Shown one piece after another: positions 744 to 38,820 of a stretch of 38,820 bases of DNA. This stretch comes from a virus. Lineage: Duplodnaviria > Heunggongvirae > Uroviricota > Caudoviricetes. The first letter of the stretch is position 1. Each line of letters opens with the position of its first letter. Location of the stretch: the IMG/VR virus record IMGVR_UViG_2908572912_000003, one strand, 5' to 3'. A model generated the notes under the pieces. That model was not told the DNA's origin. It was given only the letters and a program-made list of their open reading frames with translations, and did not search any database. Position numbers and translations under genes: made by a program.

Positions 744-1096
744 GATGGCAGCCTCCTTGAAGTAACAGTTACAGCTACCACTGGAGTTCCTACGCTCATG
801 GGTGGTAGCCCGGACGGGGGTAGGAATACCGGCCTTCAAGGAAACCGGCCAGCCCGAAGGCTGCCCCGCCCGGACCACCATTATCTGACAGAGGCTACGG
901 TTTAAAAAACACAGCCAGAAAAACAGGTGTGCCGAAGCAACGACGTAAAAAAAGACGCATGGCGCGTCATATGTCGCCTTGAAGTAACTCGGGTTCCTAC
1001 GCCCGGCTGCCGATTTTGCGGCAGCGGGAAAACTATATCCGCAAATGCCGGAAAAAGGCAAGCCAGAAAAAGGGACTTTTTGCAGGATGGGTATCA

Positions 1097-4136: not shown

Positions 4137-6368
4137 TCATAAAAGTATTGGCCCTTTATTAAAATCATTGGTTTTGAAGTTTATTTCAAAGTGTTTGTAT
4201 ATTCGAGCCGGTTTTTCAGCAAAAAGTTCGTTTGCAGTTACGATGAATGCCGGGATATCCAGTTCTTTAGCATTAAGATACTCTATTGTTTTAATGATTC
4301 GCTCATCCTCCTTGCTGAGGAGACATGAAAACATAATAAAGTCACAATTCACCAGTGCGGCTATCTTGAGAAGTTCGTCGATTTGCTTGGTGCTGAATGT
4401 AGCATTAGACTTGCATTCGCATAGGCCCAATTTATGACCAATCTTCACAAAAACATCGATGTCAGATATTAGTTTTGTTTCTTTAAATACTTCATAGTTG
4501 GATTCATAACTAAAATGGTTATAGCCTTGTTTATTAATGTAATTTATTAATAATAAAGTGGCTAATTGACCTTGGTCTACCGCGCGGGCTACTAGTTGAT
4601 TTAACTTATAGTGGTCGTTTAGTACTTTCCCGTTATCGAATAAAGGTATGTTAATCACGTTCCCACATTCGACGCAGTGGTTTATCCGTTGTAAGGTTTC
4701 CAAGGGAAACCATAGCATTGCTGAACAATGCTCACATTGGAAATGCTTCCCTCTTAATAAAATGTTTGCATTATATAAGTTTTGCAACTTCCCTTGGTAG
4801 AGTGCGGGTGATGTGTTTTTGTCTTTTAATTTATTCTCTATGGTTTCCATAGGAATAATGGTGGATGATAACGATATGTCGCCTCGCTCTTTTAGAGTGC
4901 CAATGTGAGAAATTAAGTCATCGTGTGAAATATTATCTTCAAGATTAGGAAATGCCTTTTTAACAAGTCGTTCTGTCCTTGTATGCGGGGTCAGCGATAC
5001 CAATAAATCAAATATTTTTTTGTCGCTAATTAATTTAGCGTTATCAACTCCGCCGAGTAGTTGTATTAATTGCTCTAAAATAAACGTTTTTGCTGTTTGC
5101 TTTAATGTGAGACTATAATGGTGAAAATGTGAGTGTAGTAAATCAACAAATGAAGGTAGTTTGAATGTTTCAGTTATTCCTGATGTGCTGTAAGGAGAGA
5201 AATGTTTGAAGTACTTGGATAACCCCTTCTTGGATAAGCGTGTAAAGTGGTGCGAAAACATTGAGTTATCTACGAGGTTATCAGAAAAACAATGGCCTAA
5301 AAAATATTTTTTGGGATAGGATAGTTCTGCTGGCCCTCTAACTTCAAAAACAAATCCTCCTCCAAAACCTATATCAGCGAATGTCTTTTCATTAGGGTGA
5401 GTTAGGGTTTTGATGTCTGATGGGTCTGTGAGATATTGGTTATGTTCAAAATTGGTCCATCTTTCTTTATTACTTGGGAAGTAGTATTTGTCAGCAATAA
5501 TATATTCATTGCTTGAAAGGTTAGACGGTAATTTATTTATTTCGTTTTCATTGCTTACGACCAATATGGTTTCATTAGATATTATCTCTCCATATCTCTC
5601 AATTTCTTCAAGCGGCAACCAAGCTAATTTGGCATAGTTATAGCTGTTTCTGGTGTTCCAAAAGTAAAGAATGAAATTGAAGTCAGACGAGTGTGAGATA
5701 AACAGATAATCCTTGTCTTTATCTGCAAAAAAACCTTTATTATTATGGTTTTTGTCATAGATACTTGATGATGTATATGCAGAGCCTATAGCGTTGGTTA
5801 AATTGTGATATTTTGTTTTGTTTTCGAATATATTTGATTTTATTTTATTAGGGTCGGCGATGCATGAAATGGTTACATCTTGAAAAATTGATGGCATTCT
5901 CTTTAAGTGGACATAGTTTCTTTTATCTATTACACCAAAGTTTAAAGCGAGGAATAACGAGTTGGCAGTATATTCAATATTTGATGATGCATAAACTTTA
6001 CTAGGTATTAATGTTGGGTCTTTTGTGGCTAAATAAGGAGTGCTAGAGAACGTAAAAATTGGAGAGCAAAAGTTTAGTAAATTATAGTTAGTTGACTTGG
6101 AATTGTAAGTTATAGCATTAAAGAATTCTGAAATGGTTTCATCTTCAAGGTTTGAATAGTTGAGTACAACATCAGGATCATAGCTATCAACAAGTGTCTT
6201 GTTTATTTCTGAAAGCAATGAATTATCATTTTTTAAAATTAAATTTAGGATGCCATCAATATCTTGCATTAACGACATGAATATTGATAGGAATATTTCA
6301 TGATCATCTTCGATGATAAACAACTTTCGAATGGGACGGACTTTGGTTGTAACAAATGAATTATACAC
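4137..6368 (-). CDS. Large uncharacterised cargo protein (743 aa) with a C-terminal zinc ribbon and PD-(D/E)xK-like nuclease motifs; candidate anti-phage defence protein
   Basis: Uninterrupted 2.2-kb ORF, visibly AT-rich against GC-richer flanks; GTG start at 6368 with AAGGAA upstream, 25 bp downstream of the integrase stop; CEHC (4725-4736) and CVEC (4665-4676) cysteine pairs; DIDVFV followed by ECK (4410-4418). No Walker A motif seen. Confidence 0.75.
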   Translation of the reverse strand: MYNSFVTTKVRPIRKLFIIEDDHEIFLSIFMSLMQDIDGILNLILKNDNSLLSEINKTLVDSYDPDVVLNYSNLEDETISEFFNAITYNSKSTNYNLLNFCSPIFTFSSTPYLATKDPTLIPSKVYASSNIEYTANSLFLALNFGVIDKRNYVHLKRMPSIFQDVTISCIADPNKIKSNIFENKTKYHNLTNAIGSAYTSSSIYDKNHNNKGFFADKDKDYLFISHSSDFNFILYFWNTRNSYNYAKLAWLPLEEIERYGEIISNETILVVSNENEINKLPSNLSSNEYIIADKYYFPSNKERWTNFEHNQYLTDPSDIKTLTHPNEKTFADIGFGGGFVFEVRGPAELSYPKKYFLGHCFSDNLVDNSMFSHHFTRLSKKGLSKYFKHFSPYSTSGITETFKLPSFVDLLHSHFHHYSLTLKQTAKTFILEQLIQLLGGVDNAKLISDKKIFDLLVSLTPHTRTERLVKKAFPNLEDNISHDDLISHIGTLKERGDISLSSTIIPMETIENKLKDKNTSPALYQGKLQNLYNANILLRGKHFQCEHCSAMLWFPLETLQRINHCVECGNVINIPLFDNGKVLNDHYKLNQLVARAVDQGQLATLLLINYINKQGYNHFSYESNYEVFKETKLISDIDVFVKIGHKLGLCECKSNATFSTKQIDELLKIAALVNCDFIMFSCLLSKEDERIIKTIEYLNAKELDIPAFIVTANELFAEKPARIYKHFEINFKTNDFNKGPILL

Positions 6369-7744: not shown

Positions 7745-7780
7745 TTTCTGTACTTCACTGGACGTATCCGGATCATGATT

Positions 7781-7808
7781 TGGTGGGCTGGCGGGAGTTG
7801 AACCCGCG
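7781..7808 (-). other. Attachment-site core: 3'-terminal 28 nt of a tmRNA (ssrA)-like gene, not a complete RNA gene
   Basis: Minus strand reads CGCGGGTTCAACTCCCGCCAGCCCACCA, nearly identical to the recalled E. coli ssrA 3' end (GCGGGTTCAACTCCCGCCAGCTCCACCA); the sequence 5' of it is AT-rich and not RNA-like. Confidence 0.55.
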
Positions 7809-7937
7809 TTCTATTAATGGTAAATAACTGTAATTTATAGCTTTTATTTGAAGTAGATCACATGCGTATCCTTTGTGGATACTTGAGGTATATGTTATAT
7901 ATAAAACATATATTTACATGAAGTAAATGGATGTTTT

Positions 7938-8561
7938 ATGACAATACAGGAAATAATTCAGCAACGTAATATTCGTAGCTTGTTTCATTTTACACATAGC
8001 GATAATCTAACTTCCATTTTAGATAATGGCCTTATGTCTCGTTCAGAACTTGATAATGAAAATAATGAATATAATTATAATGATGAAGAAAGGATTGATG
8101 GTCATCCAGATGCGATTTGTTTGTCCGTAAGTTACCCTAATGCAAAAATGTTTTATAAATATAGATGTTTAAAGCCTGGGGACTGGGTTATATTAGAAAT
8201 CAATCCATCTGTTCTTTGGGCTAAGGATTGCGCTTTTTATCCTACCAACGCAGCTTCGAATAACGTTCGTTTTATAAATCTTGATTTGATGAAAGGAGCT
8301 GAGGCATTTAGTGCTTTGTTTTCAGAGAATGTTTTTGGGATTCAGAGAGATGTAAACCTTCCAAGTGAGTATACGACGGATGTTCAAGCTGAAATACTGG
8401 TATTTGAAAAAATTCCTCCCTCATATATTATAAGCACTTTTCACCCTAACAAAGAATCTGCTGAACATTTCAAGAGATTATATCCACAGACAATACAGAG
8501 ATCTTATGATAATCTTAATGCTAGAACATTTTATTCTCAGAGGCATTATTATTTAGGATAA
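7938..8561 (+). CDS. DarT-like DNA ADP-ribosyltransferase toxin (DUF4433-like)
   Basis: 207 aa, AT-rich; N-terminal LFHFTHSDNLTSILDNGLMS resembles the recalled DarT NAD-binding motif; candidate catalytic Glu in AEILVFE near residue 150-155; a partner ORF follows 4 bp downstream. Confidence 0.5.
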   Translation: MTIQEIIQQRNIRSLFHFTHSDNLTSILDNGLMSRSELDNENNEYNYNDEERIDGHPDAICLSVSYPNAKMFYKYRCLKPGDWVILEINPSVLWAKDCAFYPTNAASNNVRFINLDLMKGAEAFSALFSENVFGIQRDVNLPSEYTTDVQAEILVFEKIPPSYIISTFHPNKESAEHFKRLYPQTIQRSYDNLNARTFYSQRHYYLG

Positions 8562-8564
8562 GTT

Positions 8565-9254
8565 ATGGCCGTTAGACCTGTTTTCGTCCCTACAAACGCA
8601 GGGAACTTACTATCGATCACGAAGGATGTGGATTTTCCTTGGGCTCCTGGTATGTCTAAAACGCAAAAGCAAAAATCGATCAGGGCGTTACATACAGCAG
8701 CGAATGAGCAGGGATTGAACTCTTTGTTGGAAATTTCTAGTAAATCCGAAGATGCGCTGGGGGTAGCACTTAGTGCATTTAATCTAAGAATAAAGACGAA
8801 AAGACTTGGGAAAGAGTTTACAGTTGAATCTGCATTTCAAGCAAGTAAAGTATTTGAAATGGGAGGACCATATGTCGATATCTTAGATAAAAGCTCGATA
8901 GAAGCAAAAAAAGATATGAGATTAAAGGAATCTGGGGGATTAGTTAACTTCAAATTTTATAATACAATATGGCCCATTGTCCCCAGGACTGCTTTTTATG
9001 ATTGGTTATATTTGAGTGCGCTCAATCAAAACAAAAATCTAGCACTCCATCTATTAAATTTTGATGGATTTACTGATATTGAATTTAATCCAGCGAAATC
9101 TATTAATTGCCAAGCCAGAGCAGCTGCACTTTTTGTCTCTTTAGTAAGACGAAATATGTTAGATGATGTTTTATCTTCAAAGGATGGTTTTTTATCAAAA
9201 TTAGCATCTCATTATGGTGTTGAAAATTATTCTATTCAACATACATTGATATGA
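8565..9254 (+). CDS. Partner of the DarT-like gene; possible NADAR (YbiA-like) domain antitoxin
   Basis: 229 aa with AGGA ribosome-binding site; LSAFNLRIKTKRLGKEFTVESAFQASKVF resembles the YbiA/NADAR segment FSNFAAWPIKVDGKTWPTSEHYFQAQKF; no macrodomain motifs (NAAN/GGGV) found. Confidence 0.4.
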   Translation: MAVRPVFVPTNAGNLLSITKDVDFPWAPGMSKTQKQKSIRALHTAANEQGLNSLLEISSKSEDALGVALSAFNLRIKTKRLGKEFTVESAFQASKVFEMGGPYVDILDKSSIEAKKDMRLKESGGLVNFKFYNTIWPIVPRTAFYDWLYLSALNQNKNLALHLLNFDGFTDIEFNPAKSINCQARAAALFVSLVRRNMLDDVLSSKDGFLSKLASHYGVENYSIQHTLI

Positions 9255-9256
9255 AT

Positions 9257-9280
9257 AATGGCCTGTAAAGGCCATTTTTA
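9257..9280. terminator. Bidirectional terminator between the convergent DarT-partner and integrase genes
   Basis: AATGGCC tgtaaa GGCCATT hairpin flanked by T-runs, filling the 32-bp gap between the two stop codons. Confidence 0.5.
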
Positions 9281-9286
9281 TCTAAA

Positions 9287-10456
9287 TTAATATCTATTTT
9301 TTCTATTTAAAGATGTATTTCCATCATATTCTTTGAGGTATGAGCCATAATGTCTAAATAACATCTCTGGTCCTTTATGACCCATTTGAACCGCAAGCCA
9401 AAACAGGTTTGCTCCCCGGCTGATATGGCTGGTGGCGAATGTATGTCTGGTTTGATATGGGTTTCTGTAACGAATACCTGCTTTCCGCAATGTTGGCACC
9501 CATGCTTTTTTTCTAATTGCATCAGCACTTGCCCAAGGCTTATTGGTCTTTGGATCTTCAAAGACTGTAGCATCCTTCATGAATGTAAATGGCTTCTGAT
9601 TTATCAGCGCCAACATTGCATCTTCTGTCAGTTCAACTTTACGAGTACCGGCTTTTGTCTTTGTTCCTTTGATAACACCGACAACACTTGCGCTCTGGAC
9701 ATGGGCAGTTTTTCCAACAAAGTCGATATCACGCCATCGAAGGGCACATAATTCAGAACTACGCAGGCCTGTATGTATAGCGAACCGGAACAGATTCTCC
9801 CATTGTTTGTTTCCGGCTGCTGCTAGTAATGCATCAACTTCTGCTGGTGATAGCGGATCAACCACGTAGCTGCTTTCTGCTTCTGACTTATCACTTTGGT
9901 AGCGCGAAGCAGTTACCAACGATACGGGGTTAATTTGAAGTACCCCATCGGTTACGGCTTCATCAAGTGCTGACCGCAGGAAAGATAACTGGTTGCGAAT
10001 TGTTTTTAAGGTCGTTTTCTGGCTTTGAATCCACGCTTTCAGGATTGCTGGTGTTAATTCACTTGCAGGGCAAATGTGGAGTGAGGCTAACGCACTACGG
10101 CATTTTTTATAACCACCAATCGTAGATGGTGAAAGTTTTCTCGTTTCGCAGATTTCAAGGTATTCGTCCAGGTACATTTTTACCGTTTTGCCTGCAGCAG
10201 CATTACCAAAAATTTTCAAACGAGCAGAACGGGGAAAATATTCCGCATAAATGAATGTTCCCCTTTCGATCTTATTATGAATTTCGCCGAGTGTGCGCTC
10301 GGCGTATTTAATGTTCTTTGGTGTTACTTCCAGATTGGAAAGAGGCTCACGACATCTAACTCCTTTGTAGGTGAAAGTTATATTGATCGTTTCGCCCTGG
10401 CGGTGTTTCCTGATTGTTACGCCGCGCGGTAGTTTGAGCAGTTTTGTCTGGCCCAT
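9287..10456 (-). CDS. int: Prophage tyrosine integrase
   Basis: 389 aa; catalytic region motifs (HTGLRSSELCALRW, HTFATSHI, GHKGPEMLFRHYGSY). Confidence 0.9.
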   Translation of the reverse strand: MGQTKLLKLPRGVTIRKHRQGETINITFTYKGVRCREPLSNLEVTPKNIKYAERTLGEIHNKIERGTFIYAEYFPRSARLKIFGNAAAGKTVKMYLDEYLEICETRKLSPSTIGGYKKCRSALASLHICPASELTPAILKAWIQSQKTTLKTIRNQLSFLRSALDEAVTDGVLQINPVSLVTASRYQSDKSEAESSYVVDPLSPAEVDALLAAAGNKQWENLFRFAIHTGLRSSELCALRWRDIDFVGKTAHVQSASVVGVIKGTKTKAGTRKVELTEDAMLALINQKPFTFMKDATVFEDPKTNKPWASADAIRKKAWVPTLRKAGIRYRNPYQTRHTFATSHISRGANLFWLAVQMGHKGPEMLFRHYGSYLKEYDGNTSLNRKNRY

Positions 10457-14127: not shown

Positions 14128-14403
14128 GTGGCTTCTGTTTCTATCAGCTGTCCCTCCTGTTCAGCTACTGACGGGGTGGTGCGTAACGGCAAAAGCACCG
14201 CCGGACATCAGCGCTATCTCTGCTCTCACTGCCGTAAAACATGGCAACTGCAGTTCACTTACACCGCTTCTCAACCCGGTACGCACCAGAAAATCATTGA
14301 TATGGCCATGAATGGCGTTGGATGCCGGGCAACTGCCCGCATTATGGGCGTTGGCCTCAACACGATTTTACGTCACTTAAAAAACTCAGGCCGCAGTCGG
14401 TAA
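14128..14403 (+). CDS. insA: IS1 InsA
   Basis: [43 protein letters not shown]... matches recalled IS1 InsA. Confidence 0.85.
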
Positions 14404-14825
14404 CCTCGCGCATACAGCCGGGCAGTGACGTCATCGTCTGCGCGGAAATGGACGAACAGTGGGGATACGTCGGGGCTAAATCGCGCCAGCGCTGGCTGTT
14501 TTACGCGTATGACAGGCTCCGGAAGACGGTTGTTGCGCACGTATTCGGTGAACGCACTATGGCGACGCTGGGGCGTCTTATGAGCCTGCTGTCACCCTTT
14601 GACGTGGTGATATGGATGACGGATGGCTGGCCGCTGTATGAATCCCGCCTGAAGGGAAAGCTGCACGTAATCAGTAAGCGATATACGCAGCGAATTGAGC
14701 GGCATAACCTGAATCTGAGGCAGCACCTGGCACGGCTGGGACGGAAGTCGCTGTCGTTCTCAAAATCGGTGGAGCTGCATGACAAAGTCATCGGGCATTA
14801 TCTGAACATAAAACACTATCAATAA
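14322..14825 (+). CDS. insB: IS1 InsB reading frame (expressed as the InsAB' transposase by -1 frameshift)
   Basis: ...[36 protein letters not shown]... matches recalled IS1 InsB. Confidence 0.8.
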
Positions 14826-14840
14826 GTTGGAGTCATTACC

Positions 14841-15011
14841 GGCAAAACCATTCCGGGTAACGATGATGTGGTGAAGCCCGTCAAAGAGCAGGCGGAAAAC
14901 AAAATCGATGGTGCAGTTGCGCTGATTATGGCGGTTGGCAGAGCCATGCTGTACGAGAAAGAAGACACGCTGTCTGACCACATTGAGTCCTATGGGATCC
15001 GCTCGCTTTAA
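14841..15011 (+). pseudogene. 3' remnant of a terminase large-subunit-like gene, truncated by IS1
   Basis: Frame is open from the first base after IS1 (…[24 protein letters not shown]…, 56 codons) and ends just before the portal gene; no start codon or N-terminal portion present. Confidence 0.4.
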
Positions 15012-24586: not shown

Positions 24587-25925
24587 CATAAGCGCTAACT
24601 TAAGGGTTGAACCATCTGAAGAATGCGACGCCTCGGTGCCTCGTTAAGACGATGCCTCGCGTTCTTCAATTGCGTTTTGTAGGCTGTCAGGGATACTGTC
24701 CCACGAATGGCCACCTGTAAGCTCCAGATGACCATTTTTGTTATTCTCCACAACGAGTTAGTTCTTCTTTTCGGATCCGGCACTTCTGGGGGGGAAATCC
24801 AGCGATGGCTGGATTATGTCGTCAATTAAAAATGCGGCGAGTAGATTAGCAAATATCCACGCTTTCGCGAGTTCAGGTTCCTTTGCACGCAAAGCATCCA
24901 GGTGCAGCAAACTTTTGAGCCGCTTAAAAGCCAGTTCAATTTGCCATCGCAGACGGTAACAATCAGCCACTTGCTCTGCTGAATATTCATCTTCCGGTAA
25001 TGATGTTAGCAATAGCACATGGCCCGCTGCTTCCAGCGTTTCCGCCTGAACTACTCGTCCTTTTCGACGATTCTCGCTGAGCAGTCGGGTTTTACTGATT
25101 AATGCTTTTTCGGGAGGAAGTGATACGGCAATGAGACGTGCCGGAAAGGGAGCTCCGGCTTTTTTATTACCTGAATTGCCTATCATTACAGTGGTTTCAC
25201 CGTTCTTACCGCAATCCAGCCCGCGCAGAAAACCCATCATGTCAAAGCGCATTCCTTCTGCAGTTAACCAGCGCAATCCTCGCCAGTGAACCCGGACGAT
25301 ATAATCAGCTTCTCCAAAAGCAAGTGAGCGGATACATTCGGGACGCGAACCGAATCCCCGGTCAGCAATGCGTATCTCGTCTGCCGTTTGCGCAAATCGG
25401 TCCAGCCGTTCAGCGTCTCTGCTGTCGGTTAGCTCAAAATCAGTGAACTGACAGGTATGAGGATCATATCCCATATGTAGTCGCCATTCAGCGCTGCCGC
25501 CCCCGGGCGCACTGATTGCTGTTCCATCGACAAGACGCAATCTCTTTCCGCTTGTACAACCCGTAACTGCGGCGCGTACAGCAAGTGTTTGTGCGGCAAG
25601 TATGCCAAACCAGTCGGCGGCATTCCGCAGCCGCTTCAGGAGAGCCACGTCAGATAATGTTGCAACGTCATGGAGCTGAGCCCATGCAGTGACTTCACGT
25701 AATGACATCCCCCCGGGGCCGTAAGCCAGCCCCAGACGTAGCAGAGTTGCAGCATCACGAATTTCGCGGCGGCGGGTTAGAGCCCCGGCATTACGTGCCG
25801 AAGTATCCAGTTCTTCGGGCTTACCAATATGGGCCAGAATTGCTGACCAGTTATCGTGAGAGTAATTCATCGGCACGTTAAATCATATCAGGCGTAATAC
25901 CACAACCCTTAAGTTAGCGCTTATG
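24587..25925 (-). mobile_element. IS186 (IS4 family) insertion
   Basis: Terminal inverted repeats CATAAGCGCTAACTTAAGGGTTG (24587-) and CAACCCTTAAGTTAGCGCTTATG (-25925); direct repeats GGCTGATACC(C) on both flanks; 1339 bp. Confidence 0.85.
24758..25876 (-). CDS. insL: IS186 transposase (InsL-like, IS4 family)
   Basis: 372 aa containing MNYSHDNWSAILAHIGKPEELDTSARNAG..., matching recalled IS186 transposase. Confidence 0.85.
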   Translation of the reverse strand: MPMNYSHDNWSAILAHIGKPEELDTSARNAGALTRRREIRDAATLLRLGLAYGPGGMSLREVTAWAQLHDVATLSDVALLKRLRNAADWFGILAAQTLAVRAAVTGCTSGKRLRLVDGTAISAPGGGSAEWRLHMGYDPHTCQFTDFELTDSRDAERLDRFAQTADEIRIADRGFGSRPECIRSLAFGEADYIVRVHWRGLRWLTAEGMRFDMMGFLRGLDCGKNGETTVMIGNSGNKKAGAPFPARLIAVSLPPEKALISKTRLLSENRRKGRVVQAETLEAAGHVLLLTSLPEDEYSAEQVADCYRLRWQIELAFKRLKSLLHLDALRAKEPELAKAWIFANLLAAFLIDDIIQPSLDFPPRSAGSEKKN

Positions 25926-33347: not shown

Positions 33348-34415
33348 TTAATGAAATTTATCTCGGATGAATTGTTGCGATGGTTTTTCAATGAATATAT
33401 ATGACATATAGCTAATTGCCATTAATGTAAGCATGAATAAAATGAATACCTTGGGGCTGTAAAAAAGATCGCGTCCATAGCCAATCTTGTCAGCTAAATA
33501 AACAACAATGATTTGCAAAGGAAAATGTAAAAGATAAGATGAATAACTGATATCGCCCAACCATTCAATTTTTTTCCCAAAATCGTTTCGTATTGCGCTA
33601 ATTGATACAAGGAAAAATATTATGGAGGTAAATCCGAATAAGATAATTGAGAATATATCTGCTACTTGCAGGGTAAATATAACTCCCCATGAGATCAATA
33701 GAAAAACACAAGCAAAAATAAAAAATAACTTTGCGCTAATATTTTTTATGGCCGCAATCGTAATTTTATAAGTCAGACCACCAATAAAGAAAGAGAATGC
33801 GCCGATCATTATGGGATTGTTAATTTTGAAAAAGTAGTACGATAATGCAACTATTAAAATTGATATGAATGTTGTTTTTGATGTGAACTTGCATAATATA
33901 AAAAATATCATGTACATAAGTACTTCAATCGACACGGACCATGTCGGGGCGTTGAAGGACCAACCTCGCTCAAATCCCCATGATTGAATCATCAATAAAT
34001 TCAGAATGGCATGGTAAATGTCATTCATAGGATAAACAAAAAAATAATTATGACTTTTAAAGAAAATAATTTGTAATATTGCCACGACAGCAAATGTAAA
34101 TATATAAAGTGGATATAATCTACTGACACGGTTAACTATAAAAGTTTTTGCTGAGGTTTTATTGCTGTGTATATTGTCAGCGTATAGATAAAAAAATATG
34201 AATCCAGAAATCATAAAAAATAATTCGACAGCATATAAACCGTAATGATAAAAGACGGAAAAAAATTCATAAAAAGGTTGGCGGTTTATGATTATGTCAG
34301 ATGCAGCATTCTTTTTCATAAAAAAATGTTGCCAATGCCATAACACAACGGAAAGTGCGGCAAATCCTCTCAGAACATCCAGGGTATATATTCTCTTCCC
34401 AAAAACATTCGTCAC
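33348..34415 (-). CDS. Acyltransferase family 3 membrane protein (probable O-antigen/LPS acetyltransferase)
   Basis: 355 aa, polytopic membrane protein with N-terminal DVLRGFAALSVVLWH motif; strongly AT-rich; GTG start with GAGG upstream; located after the tail fibre genes. Confidence 0.8.
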   Translation of the reverse strand: MTNVFGKRIYTLDVLRGFAALSVVLWHWQHFFMKKNAASDIIINRQPFYEFFSVFYHYGLYAVELFFMISGFIFFYLYADNIHSNKTSAKTFIVNRVSRLYPLYIFTFAVVAILQIIFFKSHNYFFVYPMNDIYHAILNLLMIQSWGFERGWSFNAPTWSVSIEVLMYMIFFILCKFTSKTTFISILIVALSYYFFKINNPIMIGAFSFFIGGLTYKITIAAIKNISAKLFFIFACVFLLISWGVIFTLQVADIFSIILFGFTSIIFFLVSISAIRNDFGKKIEWLGDISYSSYLLHFPLQIIVVYLADKIGYGRDLFYSPKVFILFMLTLMAISYMSYIFIEKPSQQFIRDKFH

Positions 34416-34886
34416 AACGAACCTCTTTTAATAAAGTCAAGTGATAATGAAAGATAAATATTGTAAACGAAAAAACACTGGACTGGAACATATATCTCTG
34501 CCTGTAATTTAACCAGGATAATTTTACTAACGCAGTCATAATTCGTTCATGTATACCAGATGAAAGTACATGTTCTATGAAATAGGGTTTTGCCTGGAGT
34601 TTGAAGGTTTTTAACGATTATACCTGTTTAATCGACTCCCCATGTTTTTTGACATTATCCACCGCACACGATACTGGATGCCAGGTAAACTGATTTGCTG
34701 GCATAAAGTCACTGAGAATTTTTTACCAACAATATCTTGCCACATCTTTTCCCGCACAGTTTCGGCAATAGAATCAGCGGGCAGCGGACATCAATATTCA
34801 CCAGACATTGATCTGCCGCACTATCTGACCGGTGTCCTGCTGAGAATACTAATTTCTTTTTTTTGCAAGTGCTGTCCAATCATGAT

Positions 34887-34916
34887 TGGGGGGGGCCGGC
34901 GGAGTTGAAACCGCAG
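34887..34916 (-). other. Degenerate tmRNA 3'-end-like sequence (possible older att remnant)
   Basis: Minus strand CTGCGGTTTCAACTCCGCCGGCCCCCCCA shares the GGCGG(G)AGTTGAA(C)CCGC core with the att core at 7781-7808. Confidence 0.3.
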
Positions 34917-34966
34917 ACACGTTGTATGCAATAACGTGCTGCGGTTTAATCTTATCAATTGAATAC

Positions 34967-35836
<870 letters not shown>

Positions 35837-36143
35837 CTAAGCCTTTGAATTTACAGAGTACAAAAAAGATACTTTTCCTCATAATGTGAGCTAATTTTAT
35901 GTTTCGTTTGATGATTGGACCGGTCTCGAAAACCGTAGGCACGTAGTATGCGTTAATTTATGAACAAACTACTTGTCTGCTGTTTTTCTGTCATTAGTCG
36001 TATATAGAATGATTCTCTATGCCTAACAAAGCATCACCAGTGCTAGATTACGTTGTAGTCACTGTTTAAATATCCAGATAAAACATTTCCTTCTGGGTTG
36101 AATGAGTGATAAAGTTTCACCCATTAGACCCCTTGGAGGAATT

Positions 36144-37577
36144 ATGTCTGAATTTGAAGTGTTGGCACAGCATCTGCTGAAGGAAGCCGAGGCGGAAGAA
36201 AAGCTGCGACAGGAAAATGATAAAAAGCTTATCGAGAAAGTGCTGGAAATCTATGATCAGAAGTATGTGGCTGAATTACTGAGAAAAGTCGGAAAAAATG
36301 AGTGGAGCCGTGAAACCATTAACCGCTGGATTAATGGCAAGTGTTTACCAAAATCGTTGACTTCAGTAGAAGAGTCTCTTCTGCGTAAGATGCTACCAGA
36401 ACCACCTGCAAACCATCCGGAATATGCTTTCCGCTTCATTGACTTATTTGCTGGAATTGGAGGGATACGGAAAGGTTTTGAGGCCATTGGAGGCCAGTGT
36501 GTTTTTACCAGTGAATGGAATAAAGATGCTGTGCGTACATACAAGGCCAACTGGTTTAACGATGAACAGGTGCATAAATTCAATCTCGATATTCGGGAAG
36601 TCACGCTGAGTGATAAAACCGATGTATTGGAAACGGATGCTTATGCATATATTGATGAGCATGTGCCGGATCATGATGTGCTTCTTGCGGGGTTCCCGTG
36701 CCAGCCATTTAGCCTTGCTGGTGTTAGTAAGAAAAACTCACTTGGTCGTGCGCATGGTTTTGAATGTGAAGCACAAGGAACACTTTTTTTTGACGTGGCA
36801 CGTATTATACGAGCAAAAAAACCGGCAATTTTTGTGCTGGAAAATGTCAAAAATCTGAAGAGCCATGATAAGGGTAAAACTTTCAAAGTCATTATGGAGA
36901 CCCTTGACGAGCTGGGCTACGAAGTTGCCGATGCTGCAGAAATGGGAAAAAACGATCCAAAGATTATCGATGGGAAGCATTTTTTGCCTCAGCATCGTGA
37001 ACGCATTGTTCTGGTCGGATTTAGACGAGATCTGAATATTCACAAGGGGTTTACCTTGCGTGATATCAGTCGTTTTTATCCGGAACACCGCCCATCATTT
37101 GGTGAATTGCTGGAGCCTGTAGTCGACAGTAAATATATACTTACGCCAAAACTATGGGAGTACCTTTATAACTACGCCAAAAAGCATGCAGCCAAGGGGA
37201 ATGGTTTTGGCTTTGGGTTGGTCAATCCTGAGAATAAGGAAAGCATTGCACGCACACTTTCTGCCAGATATCACAAAGACGGATCAGAAATTCTTATTGA
37301 TCGTGGTTGGGATATGGCAACGGGAGAGGCTGACTTTATGAATGAGAGTAACCAGGCTCGTCGACCACGCAGGCTGACTCCCCGAGAGTGCGCACGCCTT
37401 ATGGGGTTTGAAAAACCTGGAGGGAAACCATTCCGTATTCCGGTTTCAGATACTCAGTCATATCGGCAGTTCGGTAACTCCGTTGTGGTGCCAGTATTTG
37501 AAGCCGTTGCCAGACTTCTGGAACCCTATATCCTCAAAGCTGTTTCTGCTGATGCTGGTAAGACTGGGCAGCCTTGA
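36144..37577 (+). CDS. ecoRIIM: DNA cytosine-5 methyltransferase, M.EcoRII/Dcm type (CCWGG)
   Basis: Motif [14 protein letters not shown] catalytic motif ([10 protein letters not shown]), ENV motif (FVLENVKNL); closely resembles recalled Dcm/M.EcoRII; ATG at 36144 with GGAGGA upstream (the track ORF starts 42 nt earlier). Confidence 0.9.
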
Positions 37578-37611
37578 GAACACCTCCCGGCCTTTTAAGC
37601 CGGGAGTCAGC

Positions 37612-38820
37612 CTATGATAGTTCAGTGTAAAGTTCTATCAGCTCAGTAATGAATGCTCCGAGCGTTATTAATTCTTCTCTAACTGCTTCTGGGTATTTTT
37701 TATGTAAAGTTGATGGTACAACGAGTCTGACACCCGCATCTTTCATTTCTCGGTATTGTGCTGAAGAAACACCTTCTTGCAGCGTAAATAAATGTACCTG
37801 ATGGATTTTATCTGCTTCATTCAGTATCTGACGCCAGCGATCTTTGCAGGTGGTCTTTACTGCCAGCATACGTAAGTTTTCTACAGGAAATTCAGCGTTA
37901 TGATATGCCTCTGCTGAAGGAAACAGGAAATCTGGTTTTTTATTACCTTCAGTAACTGCCTGAGTGGAGAAATGCCGTAGTCCGTGCTCGATAAAAAGCT
38001 TCTCTAGGTGAAGTTCAAGTGATTTACCTGCCCTTGATTTACGTCGATTACTGACAGAGTTGGCTAATGCAATAAACTCATCTACAGAATCGAACCCTTT
38101 CTTAATAATATCAAGAACATGTAATTCCTCGACGAGTAGAAAAATATCATACTCGACACGCCGACGGTCAATCAGTTGCTCATCTGGATCCTTGGAGTTT
38201 TTAGCATAATGGCCAGCAGCATATTGAATAATTTCGTTTCCAGAAGGAAAACGCTTCTTCCAGTCTTCAGGAATAACATATTTATGATTTACTGGAGTTT
38301 GCTGAAGAGACAATCCGCCCAAAATTTGTCCGGCAGGGCCGGAAATTAGGGTTCCAGGTATGATTTCGCCAATAGCAGACTCGATGATATCCTCTTCATC
38401 GGGATTGACGCAGACCCATATATCTACCTCGGAACAGTCAGTGTTCTGTTCGTTTAACCTGAAAGCAAGAATTGTGAGGGCTCCTGTATTTTCAGGGTTC
38501 TGTAATGGACTTCCTCTCCCCCAGCGCGTAATTCTTTTTTCGTTTCGGGTCTTACCAAAATAACGGTTGTTGTAATAAATTGCGCGTGCTTGGGTATCAG
38601 GGCAATCATGGGATGATACATGCGCAGTAAGGAAGACTGAAGGGTTCAGTTCGCGAGTATGATTGATAGATGGAAAAAGCTTTTCAACGATATTTGAGGG
38701 GATATAAAGTCCGACCTGATGGCCACCTGTTGCGCCTGTGTCGTTTGCAGAAAGGCGTTTGATGTAGATAAAGTAATTCCCGCTTGCGATATCAAGCAGC
38801 CAGTTATGAAAAACCGACAT
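37612..38820 (-). CDS. ecoRIIR: Type II restriction endonuclease EcoRII
   Basis: 402 aa starting MSVFHNWLLDIASGNYFIYIKRLSANDTGATGGHQVGLYIPS..., near-identical over long stretches to recalled R.EcoRII; convergent with the methyltransferase; the start codon is the last three bases of the window. Confidence 0.9.
   Translation of the reverse strand: MSVFHNWLLDIASGNYFIYIKRLSANDTGATGGHQVGLYIPSNIVEKLFPSINHTRELNPSVFLTAHVSSHDCPDTQARAIYYNNRYFGKTRNEKRITRWGRGSPLQNPENTGALTILAFRLNEQNTDCSEVDIWVCVNPDEEDIIESAIGEIIPGTLISGPAGQILGGLSLQQTPVNHKYVIPEDWKKRFPSGNEIIQYAAGHYAKNSKDPDEQLIDRRRVEYDIFLLVEELHVLDIIKKGFDSVDEFIALANSVSNRRKSRAGKSLELHLEKLFIEHGLRHFSTQAVTEGNKKPDFLFPSAEAYHNAEFPVENLRMLAVKTTCKDRWRQILNEADKIHQVHLFTLQEGVSSAQYREMKDAGVRLVVPSTLHKKYPEAVREELITLGAFITELIELYTELS

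What the first reader, a model, noticed from the sequence alone, without database searches (positions are those of the whole stretch)
7938..9254. DarT-like ADP-ribosyltransferase with a non-macrodomain, NADAR-like partner
Two AT-rich genes with a 4-bp gap sit between the att core and the integrase stop, with their own AT-rich promoter and a shared terminator. Gene 1 has DarT-like motifs (HFTH...NLTSIL...GL, candidate catalytic Glu). Gene 2 lacks macrodomain motifs but has a YbiA/NADAR-like block (LSAFN...IKT...GK...T.E..FQA.K.F). That matches the recently described guanine-directed DarT1-NADAR toxin-antitoxin/defence pairing rather than canonical DarTG, here carried as a prophage accessory gene pair beside int.
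Basis: partly seen in the sequence, partly recalled or inferred. Interest (0 to 1): 0.8.

Follow-up and report, generated by a model that had tools for sequence, protein, structure and literature searches.

The report
Known DarT1–NADAR (DarTG1) phage-defence pair
The two genes are a real toxin–antitoxin pair, a DNA-modifying DarT1 toxin and its NADAR antidote, but they are almost letter-for-letter the E. coli C7 DarTG1 system that already has crystal structures, biochemistry and phage-defence data, so the finding is correct and ordinary.

Summary

- **Gene 1:** window 7938-8561 (+, 207 aa) matches Pfam DarT (E=3e-24). It differs at only 3 residues from E. coli C7 DarT1, whose crystal structures are PDB 8BAQ/8BAR/8BAS.
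- **Gene 2:** window 8565-9254 (+, 229 aa) matches Pfam 'DarT1-associated NADAR antitoxin' (E=1.4e-89). It is 100% identical to the biochemically characterised E. coli C7 NADAR.
- **Catalytic residues:** all experimentally defined residues are intact, including DarT1 E152 and NADAR E88/K95/D171.
- **Existing annotation:** the window is E. coli AR_0369 chromosome, and RefSeq already names both genes.
- **Published function:** the C7 pair ADP-ribosylates guanine in ssDNA, NADAR reverses this, and the system defends against phage when expressed from its native promoter.
- **Context claims:** these mostly hold. The 'att core' is a copy of the ssrA 3' end (7772-7810). The pair is AT-rich (33-36% GC against 49% for the window), converges on the prophage integrase, and is followed by a hairpin terminator.
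- **Corrections:** the intergenic gap is 3 nt, not 4, and no consensus promoter was found.

Two extras came out of the context work. The att–int slot holds different cargo in related prophages; DarTG1 fills it in about 29 of 396. The neighbouring P4-like satellite carries an unannotated 743-aa protein whose predicted fold resembles Can2/Card1 nucleases.

The parts
7772..7810 (-). attL: displaced partial copy of the ssrA (tmRNA) 3' end, marking the left boundary of the prophage
   Evidence: Aligns to the 3' end of the intact ssrA of the same genome, with an exact 23-bp core. Occurs once in the window, 0 expected by chance. AR_0369/C7 homology begins inside it.
7811..7937 (+). AT-rich (about 26% GC) upstream region that presumably holds the native darTG1 promoter
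   Evidence: 100% identical to E. coli C7. GC content. No consensus sigma-70 hit. Promoter activity is inferred from published native-promoter constructs.
7900..7940 (+). Predicted 5'-leader hairpin that pairs the SD-like GGA and the AUG of darT1; a candidate translational brake on the toxin (inference)
   Evidence: 17-nt inverted repeat, 88% complementary. RNA fold -12.6 kcal/mol, z=-4.5, 0 of 200 shuffles fold as well. No covariation test was possible.
7938..8561 (+). darT1: guanine-specific ssDNA ADP-ribosyltransferase toxin (207 aa)
   Evidence: Pfam DarT E=3e-24. PDB 8BAQ/8BAR/8BAS E. coli C7 DarT1 E=2e-138. Differs from native C7 only at Y47C, S189Y and F198L. F18, D49, R52, D54, S63, M71, F72, N104 and E152 are all present.
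8565..9254 (+). nadar (darG1): NADAR-family ADP-ribosylglycohydrolase antitoxin (229 aa)
   Evidence: Pfam NADAR-DarT1 E=1.4e-89. 100% identical to E. coli C7 NADAR WP_032219797.1. 8BAT E=3.5e-71. E88, K95, K115, D171 and E173 present.
9257..9283 (+). Intrinsic terminator-like hairpin plus T-run between the converging nadar and int genes
   Evidence: 8-bp stem, 4-nt loop, TTTATCT tail.
9287..10456 (-). Prophage tyrosine integrase (context); its stop codon faces the cassette
   Evidence: Pfam Arm-DNA-bind_2 plus Phage_integrase. Homology with other E. coli prophages breaks just past its stop codon.

Best explanation
This is a DarTG1 (DarT1–NADAR) type IV toxin–antitoxin anti-phage system. It is an allele of the E. 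coli C7 model system, carried as the first cargo inside the attL end of a defective prophage integrated in ssrA. DarT1 uses NAD+ to attach ADP-ribose to the N2 of guanine in single-stranded DNA, which blocks replication. The co-transcribed NADAR hydrolase removes the modification and keeps uninfected cells viable. On phage infection DarT1 activity prevails and phage DNA is modified, which stops phage replication. Shown here: gene structure, family membership, near-identity to the characterised proteins, intact catalytic residues, and prophage placement. Taken from the literature on the near-identical C7 proteins: enzymatic activity, toxicity and rescue, and phage defence. Inferred: a promoter in 7811-7937, and a leader hairpin that may limit darT1 translation.
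For: - Pfam DarT 86.3 bits and NADAR-DarT1 299.6 bits, both far above their cut-offs.
- DarT1 is 204/207 identical to native C7 DarT1, and the PDB construct 8BAQ differs additionally only by the engineered E152A.
- NADAR is 229/229 identical to C7 NADAR and carries the same RefSeq accession in both genomes.
- Only 5 nt differ over the 1317-nt cassette, and the upstream region is identical.
- All residues probed by mutagenesis in PMC11543638 are conserved.
- PMC11543638 shows that C7 DarT1 is lethal and is rescued by its cognate NADAR, that it ADP-ribosylates guanine in ssDNA but not dsDNA, and that NADAR reverses this.
- Native-promoter darTG1 defends against RB69 and other T-even phages.
- RefSeq annotates both genes accordingly in 15 of the 15 top genomes listed.
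Against: - Nothing in the sequence contradicts this reading.
- The three DarT1 substitutions (Y47, S189, F198) are untested in this allele.
- The NCBIfam DarT equivalog model scores far below its cut-off (29.1 against 150), and PADLOC's DarT model matches only partly, with no NADAR model in that release. Both are expected, since those models were built around thymidine-specific DarT2 and DarTG2.
- No consensus promoter was detected.
- The host prophage is defective (IS1 and IS421 insertions), so expression in this strain is unproven.
Confidence: 0.95

Rival explanations
1. The pair acts mainly as an addiction or stabilisation module that retains the prophage at ssrA, rather than as an anti-phage system.
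For: It sits directly inside attL next to int. The host prophage is decayed yet the cassette is intact. It is a genuine toxin–antitoxin pair.
Against: The near-identical C7 system gives measurable phage defence from its native promoter in a chromosomal, non-prophage context. The same slot in related prophages holds other defence-like cargo rather than addiction modules only. The two roles are not mutually exclusive.
Confidence: 0.1
2. This is an inactivated remnant: the three substitutions relative to C7 DarT1 have killed the toxin, and the pair is drifting.
For: Y47C, S189Y and F198L differ from the characterised protein. The surrounding prophage is degraded.
Against: Both ORFs are full length. 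All nine DarT1 residues tested by mutagenesis are conserved. NADAR is 100% conserved at the protein level, with only synonymous changes. The substitutions lie outside the tested active-site set.
Confidence: 0.04
3. This is a canonical thymidine-specific DarTG2 system (DarT2 plus macrodomain DarG).
For: RefSeq's product name for gene 1 still reads 'ssDNA thymidine ADP-ribosyltransferase family protein'.
Against: Gene 2 has no Macro hit at E<=1 and is a NADAR. Gene 1 is the guanine-specific C7 DarT1. The DarT2–DarG fusion 7OMU matches only at E=0.0013.
Confidence: 0.01

Closest known systems
E. coli C7 DarTG1 (DarT1–NADAR); PDB 8BAQ/8BAR/8BAS; Schuller et al., Mol Cell 2023 (PMC11543638)
   Same: Same species, same locus type (att–darT1–nadar–int at ssrA), and the same 3-nt-spaced operon. 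NADAR is 100% identical and DarT1 98.6% identical. The upstream region is identical and all catalytic residues are conserved.
   Different: Three DarT1 substitutions (Y47 vs C, S189 vs Y, F198 vs L). The left neighbour differs: an intact P4-type integrase and satellite here, a decayed integrase in C7. The prophage is more degraded here.
Geobacter lovleyi DarT1–NADAR (NADAR structure 8BAT)
   Same: Same family and architecture. NADAR aligns over residues 1-212 at E=3.5e-71. It is also a validated toxin–antitoxin pair.
   Different: A divergent orthologue from a distant, thermophilic host, not prophage-borne as far as is known here.
DarTG2 (DarT2 plus macrodomain DarG; Thermus aquaticus, M. tuberculosis, EPEC)
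   Same: A DarT-family ART toxin that modifies ssDNA, an enzymatic (type IV) antitoxin that erases the mark, and a phage-defence role.
   Different: The target base is thymidine, not guanine. The antitoxin is a two-domain macrodomain protein, not a NADAR. No Macro domain is present here.
Phage AdfN (T4 gp30.3) orphan NADARs (PMC11825919)
   Same: NADAR-fold guanine-ADPr hydrolases, and the closest relatives of DarG1-type NADARs.
   Different: They are phage counter-defence genes without a toxin partner and lack the N-terminal extension. Gene 2 here has the full DarT1-associated profile (positions 1-210 of 212) and a toxin partner.

Membership tests
DarT1 (toxin of DarTG1; Pfam PF14487 DarT) | Sequence match to the DarT ADP-ribosyltransferase profile above the curated threshold | tested here: met
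   86.3 bits against a cut-off of 22.5, E=3e-24, residues 16-182.
DarT1 (toxin of DarTG1; Pfam PF14487 DarT) | ART fold with catalytic Glu (E152) and the NAD+/guanine-contacting residues F18, D49, R52, D54, S63, M71, F72 and N104 | tested here: met
   All nine residues are present. The protein is 98.6% identical to the crystallised protein 8BAQ.
DarT1 (toxin of DarTG1; Pfam PF14487 DarT) | Operon partner is a NADAR protein, not a macrodomain DarG | tested here: met
   The downstream gene, 3 nt away, matches PF22397 NADAR-DarT1 and has no Macro hit at E<=1.
DarT1 (toxin of DarTG1; Pfam PF14487 DarT) | ADP-ribosylates guanine N2 in ssDNA and is toxic when expressed alone | not testable with these tools
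   Shown experimentally for the C7 protein, which differs at 3 residues (PMC11543638).
DarT1-associated NADAR antitoxin (DarG1; Pfam PF22397) | Full-length match to the NADAR-DarT1 profile, including the N-terminal extension | tested here: met
   299.6 bits against a cut-off of 27; protein residues 2-211 on profile positions 1-210 of 212.
DarT1-associated NADAR antitoxin (DarG1; Pfam PF22397) | Catalytic E88, K95 and D171, and the DarT1-NADAR-specific K115 | tested here: met
   All are present. The protein is identical to C7 NADAR.
DarT1-associated NADAR antitoxin (DarG1; Pfam PF22397) | Hydrolyses guanine-ADPr and rescues DarT1 toxicity | not testable with these tools
   Shown for the 100% identical C7 protein (PMC11543638).
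DarTG2 (DarT2 plus macrodomain DarG) | The antitoxin contains a macrodomain | tested here: not met
   No Macro family hit for gene 2 at E<=1. The only PDB match is a NADAR.
Anti-phage defence system (DarTG1) | Reduces phage plating when expressed from its native promoter | not testable with these tools
   Reported for the C7 system. The primary paper, LeRoux 2022 (PMC9250638), is not held.

The most novel reading that the evidence does not exclude
The cassette itself is known. The most novel reading still open concerns its setting. (i) The attL–int slot of this ssrA-integrating prophage family may be a hotspot for exchangeable defence cargo; I did not find it described in the few papers I checked. 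DarTG1 fills it in only about 7% of integrase carriers, and the rest hold other, partly uncharacterised cassettes. (ii) A leader hairpin that occludes the SD and AUG of darT1 may restrain its translation.
Probability: 0.35. Interest if true: 0.3.

Novelty: already known. Interest (0 to 1): 0.1.

Why it matters
As a discovery it adds little. The system is the published E. coli model for guanine-directed DNA ADP-ribosylation and its reversal, and public annotation already names both genes. Its value is as a positive control for the scan: a tool-less reader identified DarT1–NADAR correctly from motifs alone. The context also shows how such systems travel, as swappable cargo between att and int of an ssrA prophage, next to a P4-like satellite with its own hotspot gene.

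Tried and rejected
- **NCBIfam:** only a sub-threshold hit of gene 1 to the DarT equivalog (29.1 against 150 bits) and nothing for gene 2. I read this as a model built on DarT2, not as evidence against membership.
- **PADLOC v2.0.0:** a partial DarT hit only, and no NADAR model.
- **PHROGs:** no hit for either protein.
- **Megablast against 50,697 phage records:** no match for the cassette, so no sequenced free phage carrying it was found.
- **ARAGORN:** no tRNA or tmRNA in the window. The att is only a 3' fragment, and the intact ssrA lies just outside the window.
- **Consensus promoter scan:** no + strand hit upstream of darT1. By eye there is an extended -10-like TGtTATATA at 7893-7901, which is not evidence.
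- **LeRoux et al. 2022 (PMC9250638):** not held. The phage-defence evidence is therefore cited second-hand from PMC11543638 and PMC11825919.
- **Structure prediction of the two proteins:** judged unnecessary, because a crystal structure exists for a 98.6% identical DarT1 and a close NADAR homologue.

Full report
**Observation.** No competing ORF of 40 aa or more lies on the other strand. The quoted motifs are present. The gap between the genes is 3 nt (GTT), not 4. The cassette is AT-rich, at 33.2% and 35.9% GC, with 26% in the 131-nt stretch 7807-7937 upstream. The whole window is 49.0% GC. A hairpin and T-run terminator sits at 9257-9276, between the converging nadar and int stops. The consensus scan found no sigma-70 promoter upstream on the + strand.

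**Identity.** Gene 1 matches Pfam PF14487 DarT (E=3e-24, 86.3 bits, cut-off 22.5). Gene 2 matches PF22397 'DarT1-associated NADAR antitoxin' (E=1.4e-89, 299.6 bits, cut-off 27) and has no macrodomain hit at E<=1. Against solved structures, gene 1 hits 'E. coli C7 DarT1' (8BAQ/8BAR/8BAS) at E=2e-138, and gene 2 hits Geobacter lovleyi NADAR 8BAT at E=3.5e-71.

The window is 100% identical to E. coli AR_0369 chromosome NZ_CP027140.1. E. coli C7 carries the same att–darT1–nadar–int arrangement at 98.1% identity. A direct comparison gives the following:
- Only 5 nucleotide differences over the 1317-nt cassette.
- NADAR is 229/229 identical, with the same accession WP_032219797.1 in both genomes.
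- DarT1 differs at Y47C, S189Y and F198L.
- The region from the att core to the darT1 start is 100% identical.

Every residue probed by mutagenesis in the C7 proteins is conserved. For DarT1 these are F18, D49, R52, D54, S63, M71, F72, N104 and E152. For NADAR they are E88, K95, K115, K116, R119, K121, D171, E173 and K178. RefSeq already names both genes.

**Mechanism (from the literature on the C7 proteins).** PMC11543638 shows the following:
- C7 DarT1 is lethal in E. coli and is rescued by its cognate NADAR.
- It ADP-ribosylates guanine (distal-ribose C1 to guanine N2) in ssDNA but not in dsDNA.
- E152 is the catalytic glutamate.
- NADAR hydrolyses guanine-ADPr using E88, K95 and D171.

C7 DarTG1 was the representative system used to show phage defence. 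Native-promoter darTG1 restricts RB69 and other T-even phages unless they carry AdfA or AdfN counter-defences. These activities are inferred here from 98.6% and 100% identity; they were not tested.

**Context.** Window 7772-7810 is an imperfect copy of the ssrA 3' end, with an exact 23-bp core. The intact ssrA lies 235 nt past the right end of the window. AR_0369 and C7 diverge to the left of the core and are identical to its right. The core is therefore the prophage attL, and the cassette is the first cargo inside it, converging on the integrase (Arm-DNA-bind_2 plus Phage_integrase).

The prophage has an HK97-type head and a contractile tail. It is defective, with IS1 inserted in the terminase gene and IS421 after the tape-measure gene. 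To the left lies a truncated P4-like satellite.

Of 5,426 complete E. coli genomes, 396 carry this integrase, but only 28-29 carry the cassette. In the rest, homology stops just past the int stop codon, and the slot holds other genes:
- Dam-type methylase plus an AAA ATPase in strain AR17.2B.
- A three-gene set that includes a STAS-like protein in strain SF-166.
- A single 265-aa hypothetical protein in strain 3985.
- AAA_15 plus RloB in a Yersinia locus.

The slot behaves as a variable cargo site. No sequenced free phage carries the cassette.

**Minor new detail.** A 17-nt inverted repeat (7901-7917 and 7923-7939) folds as RNA at -12.6 kcal/mol (z=-4.5). It pairs the SD-like GGA and the AUG of darT1. 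It may limit toxin translation. There is no covariation data, because the available copies are identical.

**Verdict.** The system is already known and is in effect the published model system, so interest is low.

**Passing observation.** The 743-aa ORF at 4137..6368 (-) has about 30% GC. It lies between psu and the P4-type integrase, which is the documented P4 defence hotspot (PMC9122126).
- It has no hit in Pfam, PADLOC, PHROGs, NCBIfam or PDB sequences.
- It defines a small family of 24 clusters, each about 745 aa, in Enterobacterales, Legionella and metagenomes.
- Invariant residues are C545, C548, C565 and C568, which look like a zinc ribbon, and D638, E651 and K653, which look like a PD-(D/E)xK nuclease motif.
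- The AlphaFold model is confident (pLDDT 87, pTM 0.85).
- A Yersinia homologue sits in the same P4 slot at ssrA. A Legionella homologue lies beside AbiE and Mrr genes.

This ORF is a better candidate for something new than the assigned finding, but it lies outside that finding.

Noticed in passing
[not shown]
   Followed up: partly
window 7811-9286; loci L008 2206-4918, L009 3102-4972, L010 4139-4936, L004 2353-4361: The slot between the ssrA att core and the stop codon of this prophage integrase holds variable cargo. 396 of 5,426 E. coli genomes have the integrase, but only about 29 carry DarTG1. Others carry a Dam methylase plus AAA ATPase, a three-gene set with a STAS-like protein, a lone 265-aa hypothetical, or (in Yersinia) AAA_15 plus RloB.
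   Followed up: partly
window 7900-7940 (+): A predicted leader hairpin (-12.6 kcal/mol, z=-4.5) pairs the SD-like GGA and the AUG of darT1. It could act as a translational brake on the toxin. It is identical in E. coli C7, so no covariation test was possible.
   Followed up: partly
window 33348-38820: The right end of the prophage, next to ssrA, carries a second cargo cluster. It comprises an acyltransferase (33348-34415, -), a LEM-3-like GIY-YIG protein (34967-35740, -), a DNA cytosine methyltransferase (36144-37577, +) and a type II restriction endonuclease (37612-38820, -). Both prophage ends therefore carry defence-type genes.
   Followed up: no
window 14128-15011 and 24758-25870: The prophage is defective. 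IS1A is inserted next to a terminase fragment, IS421 lies after the tape-measure gene, and the immunity and replication region present in strain C7 is missing here.
   Followed up: no
window 798-1038 (-): Rfam finds C4 antisense RNA (798-885), isrK (948-1025) and c4-a1b1 (986-1038). This is the immunity RNA region of the P4-like satellite, overlapping the Icd-like CDS. The satellite is cut off on its left by an IS5-like element.
   Followed up: no
window 7938-8561 (+): The RefSeq product name for gene 1 is 'DarT ssDNA thymidine ADP-ribosyltransferase family protein', although this subfamily (DarT1) is guanine-specific according to PMC11543638. The inherited family name is misleading.
   Followed up: yes
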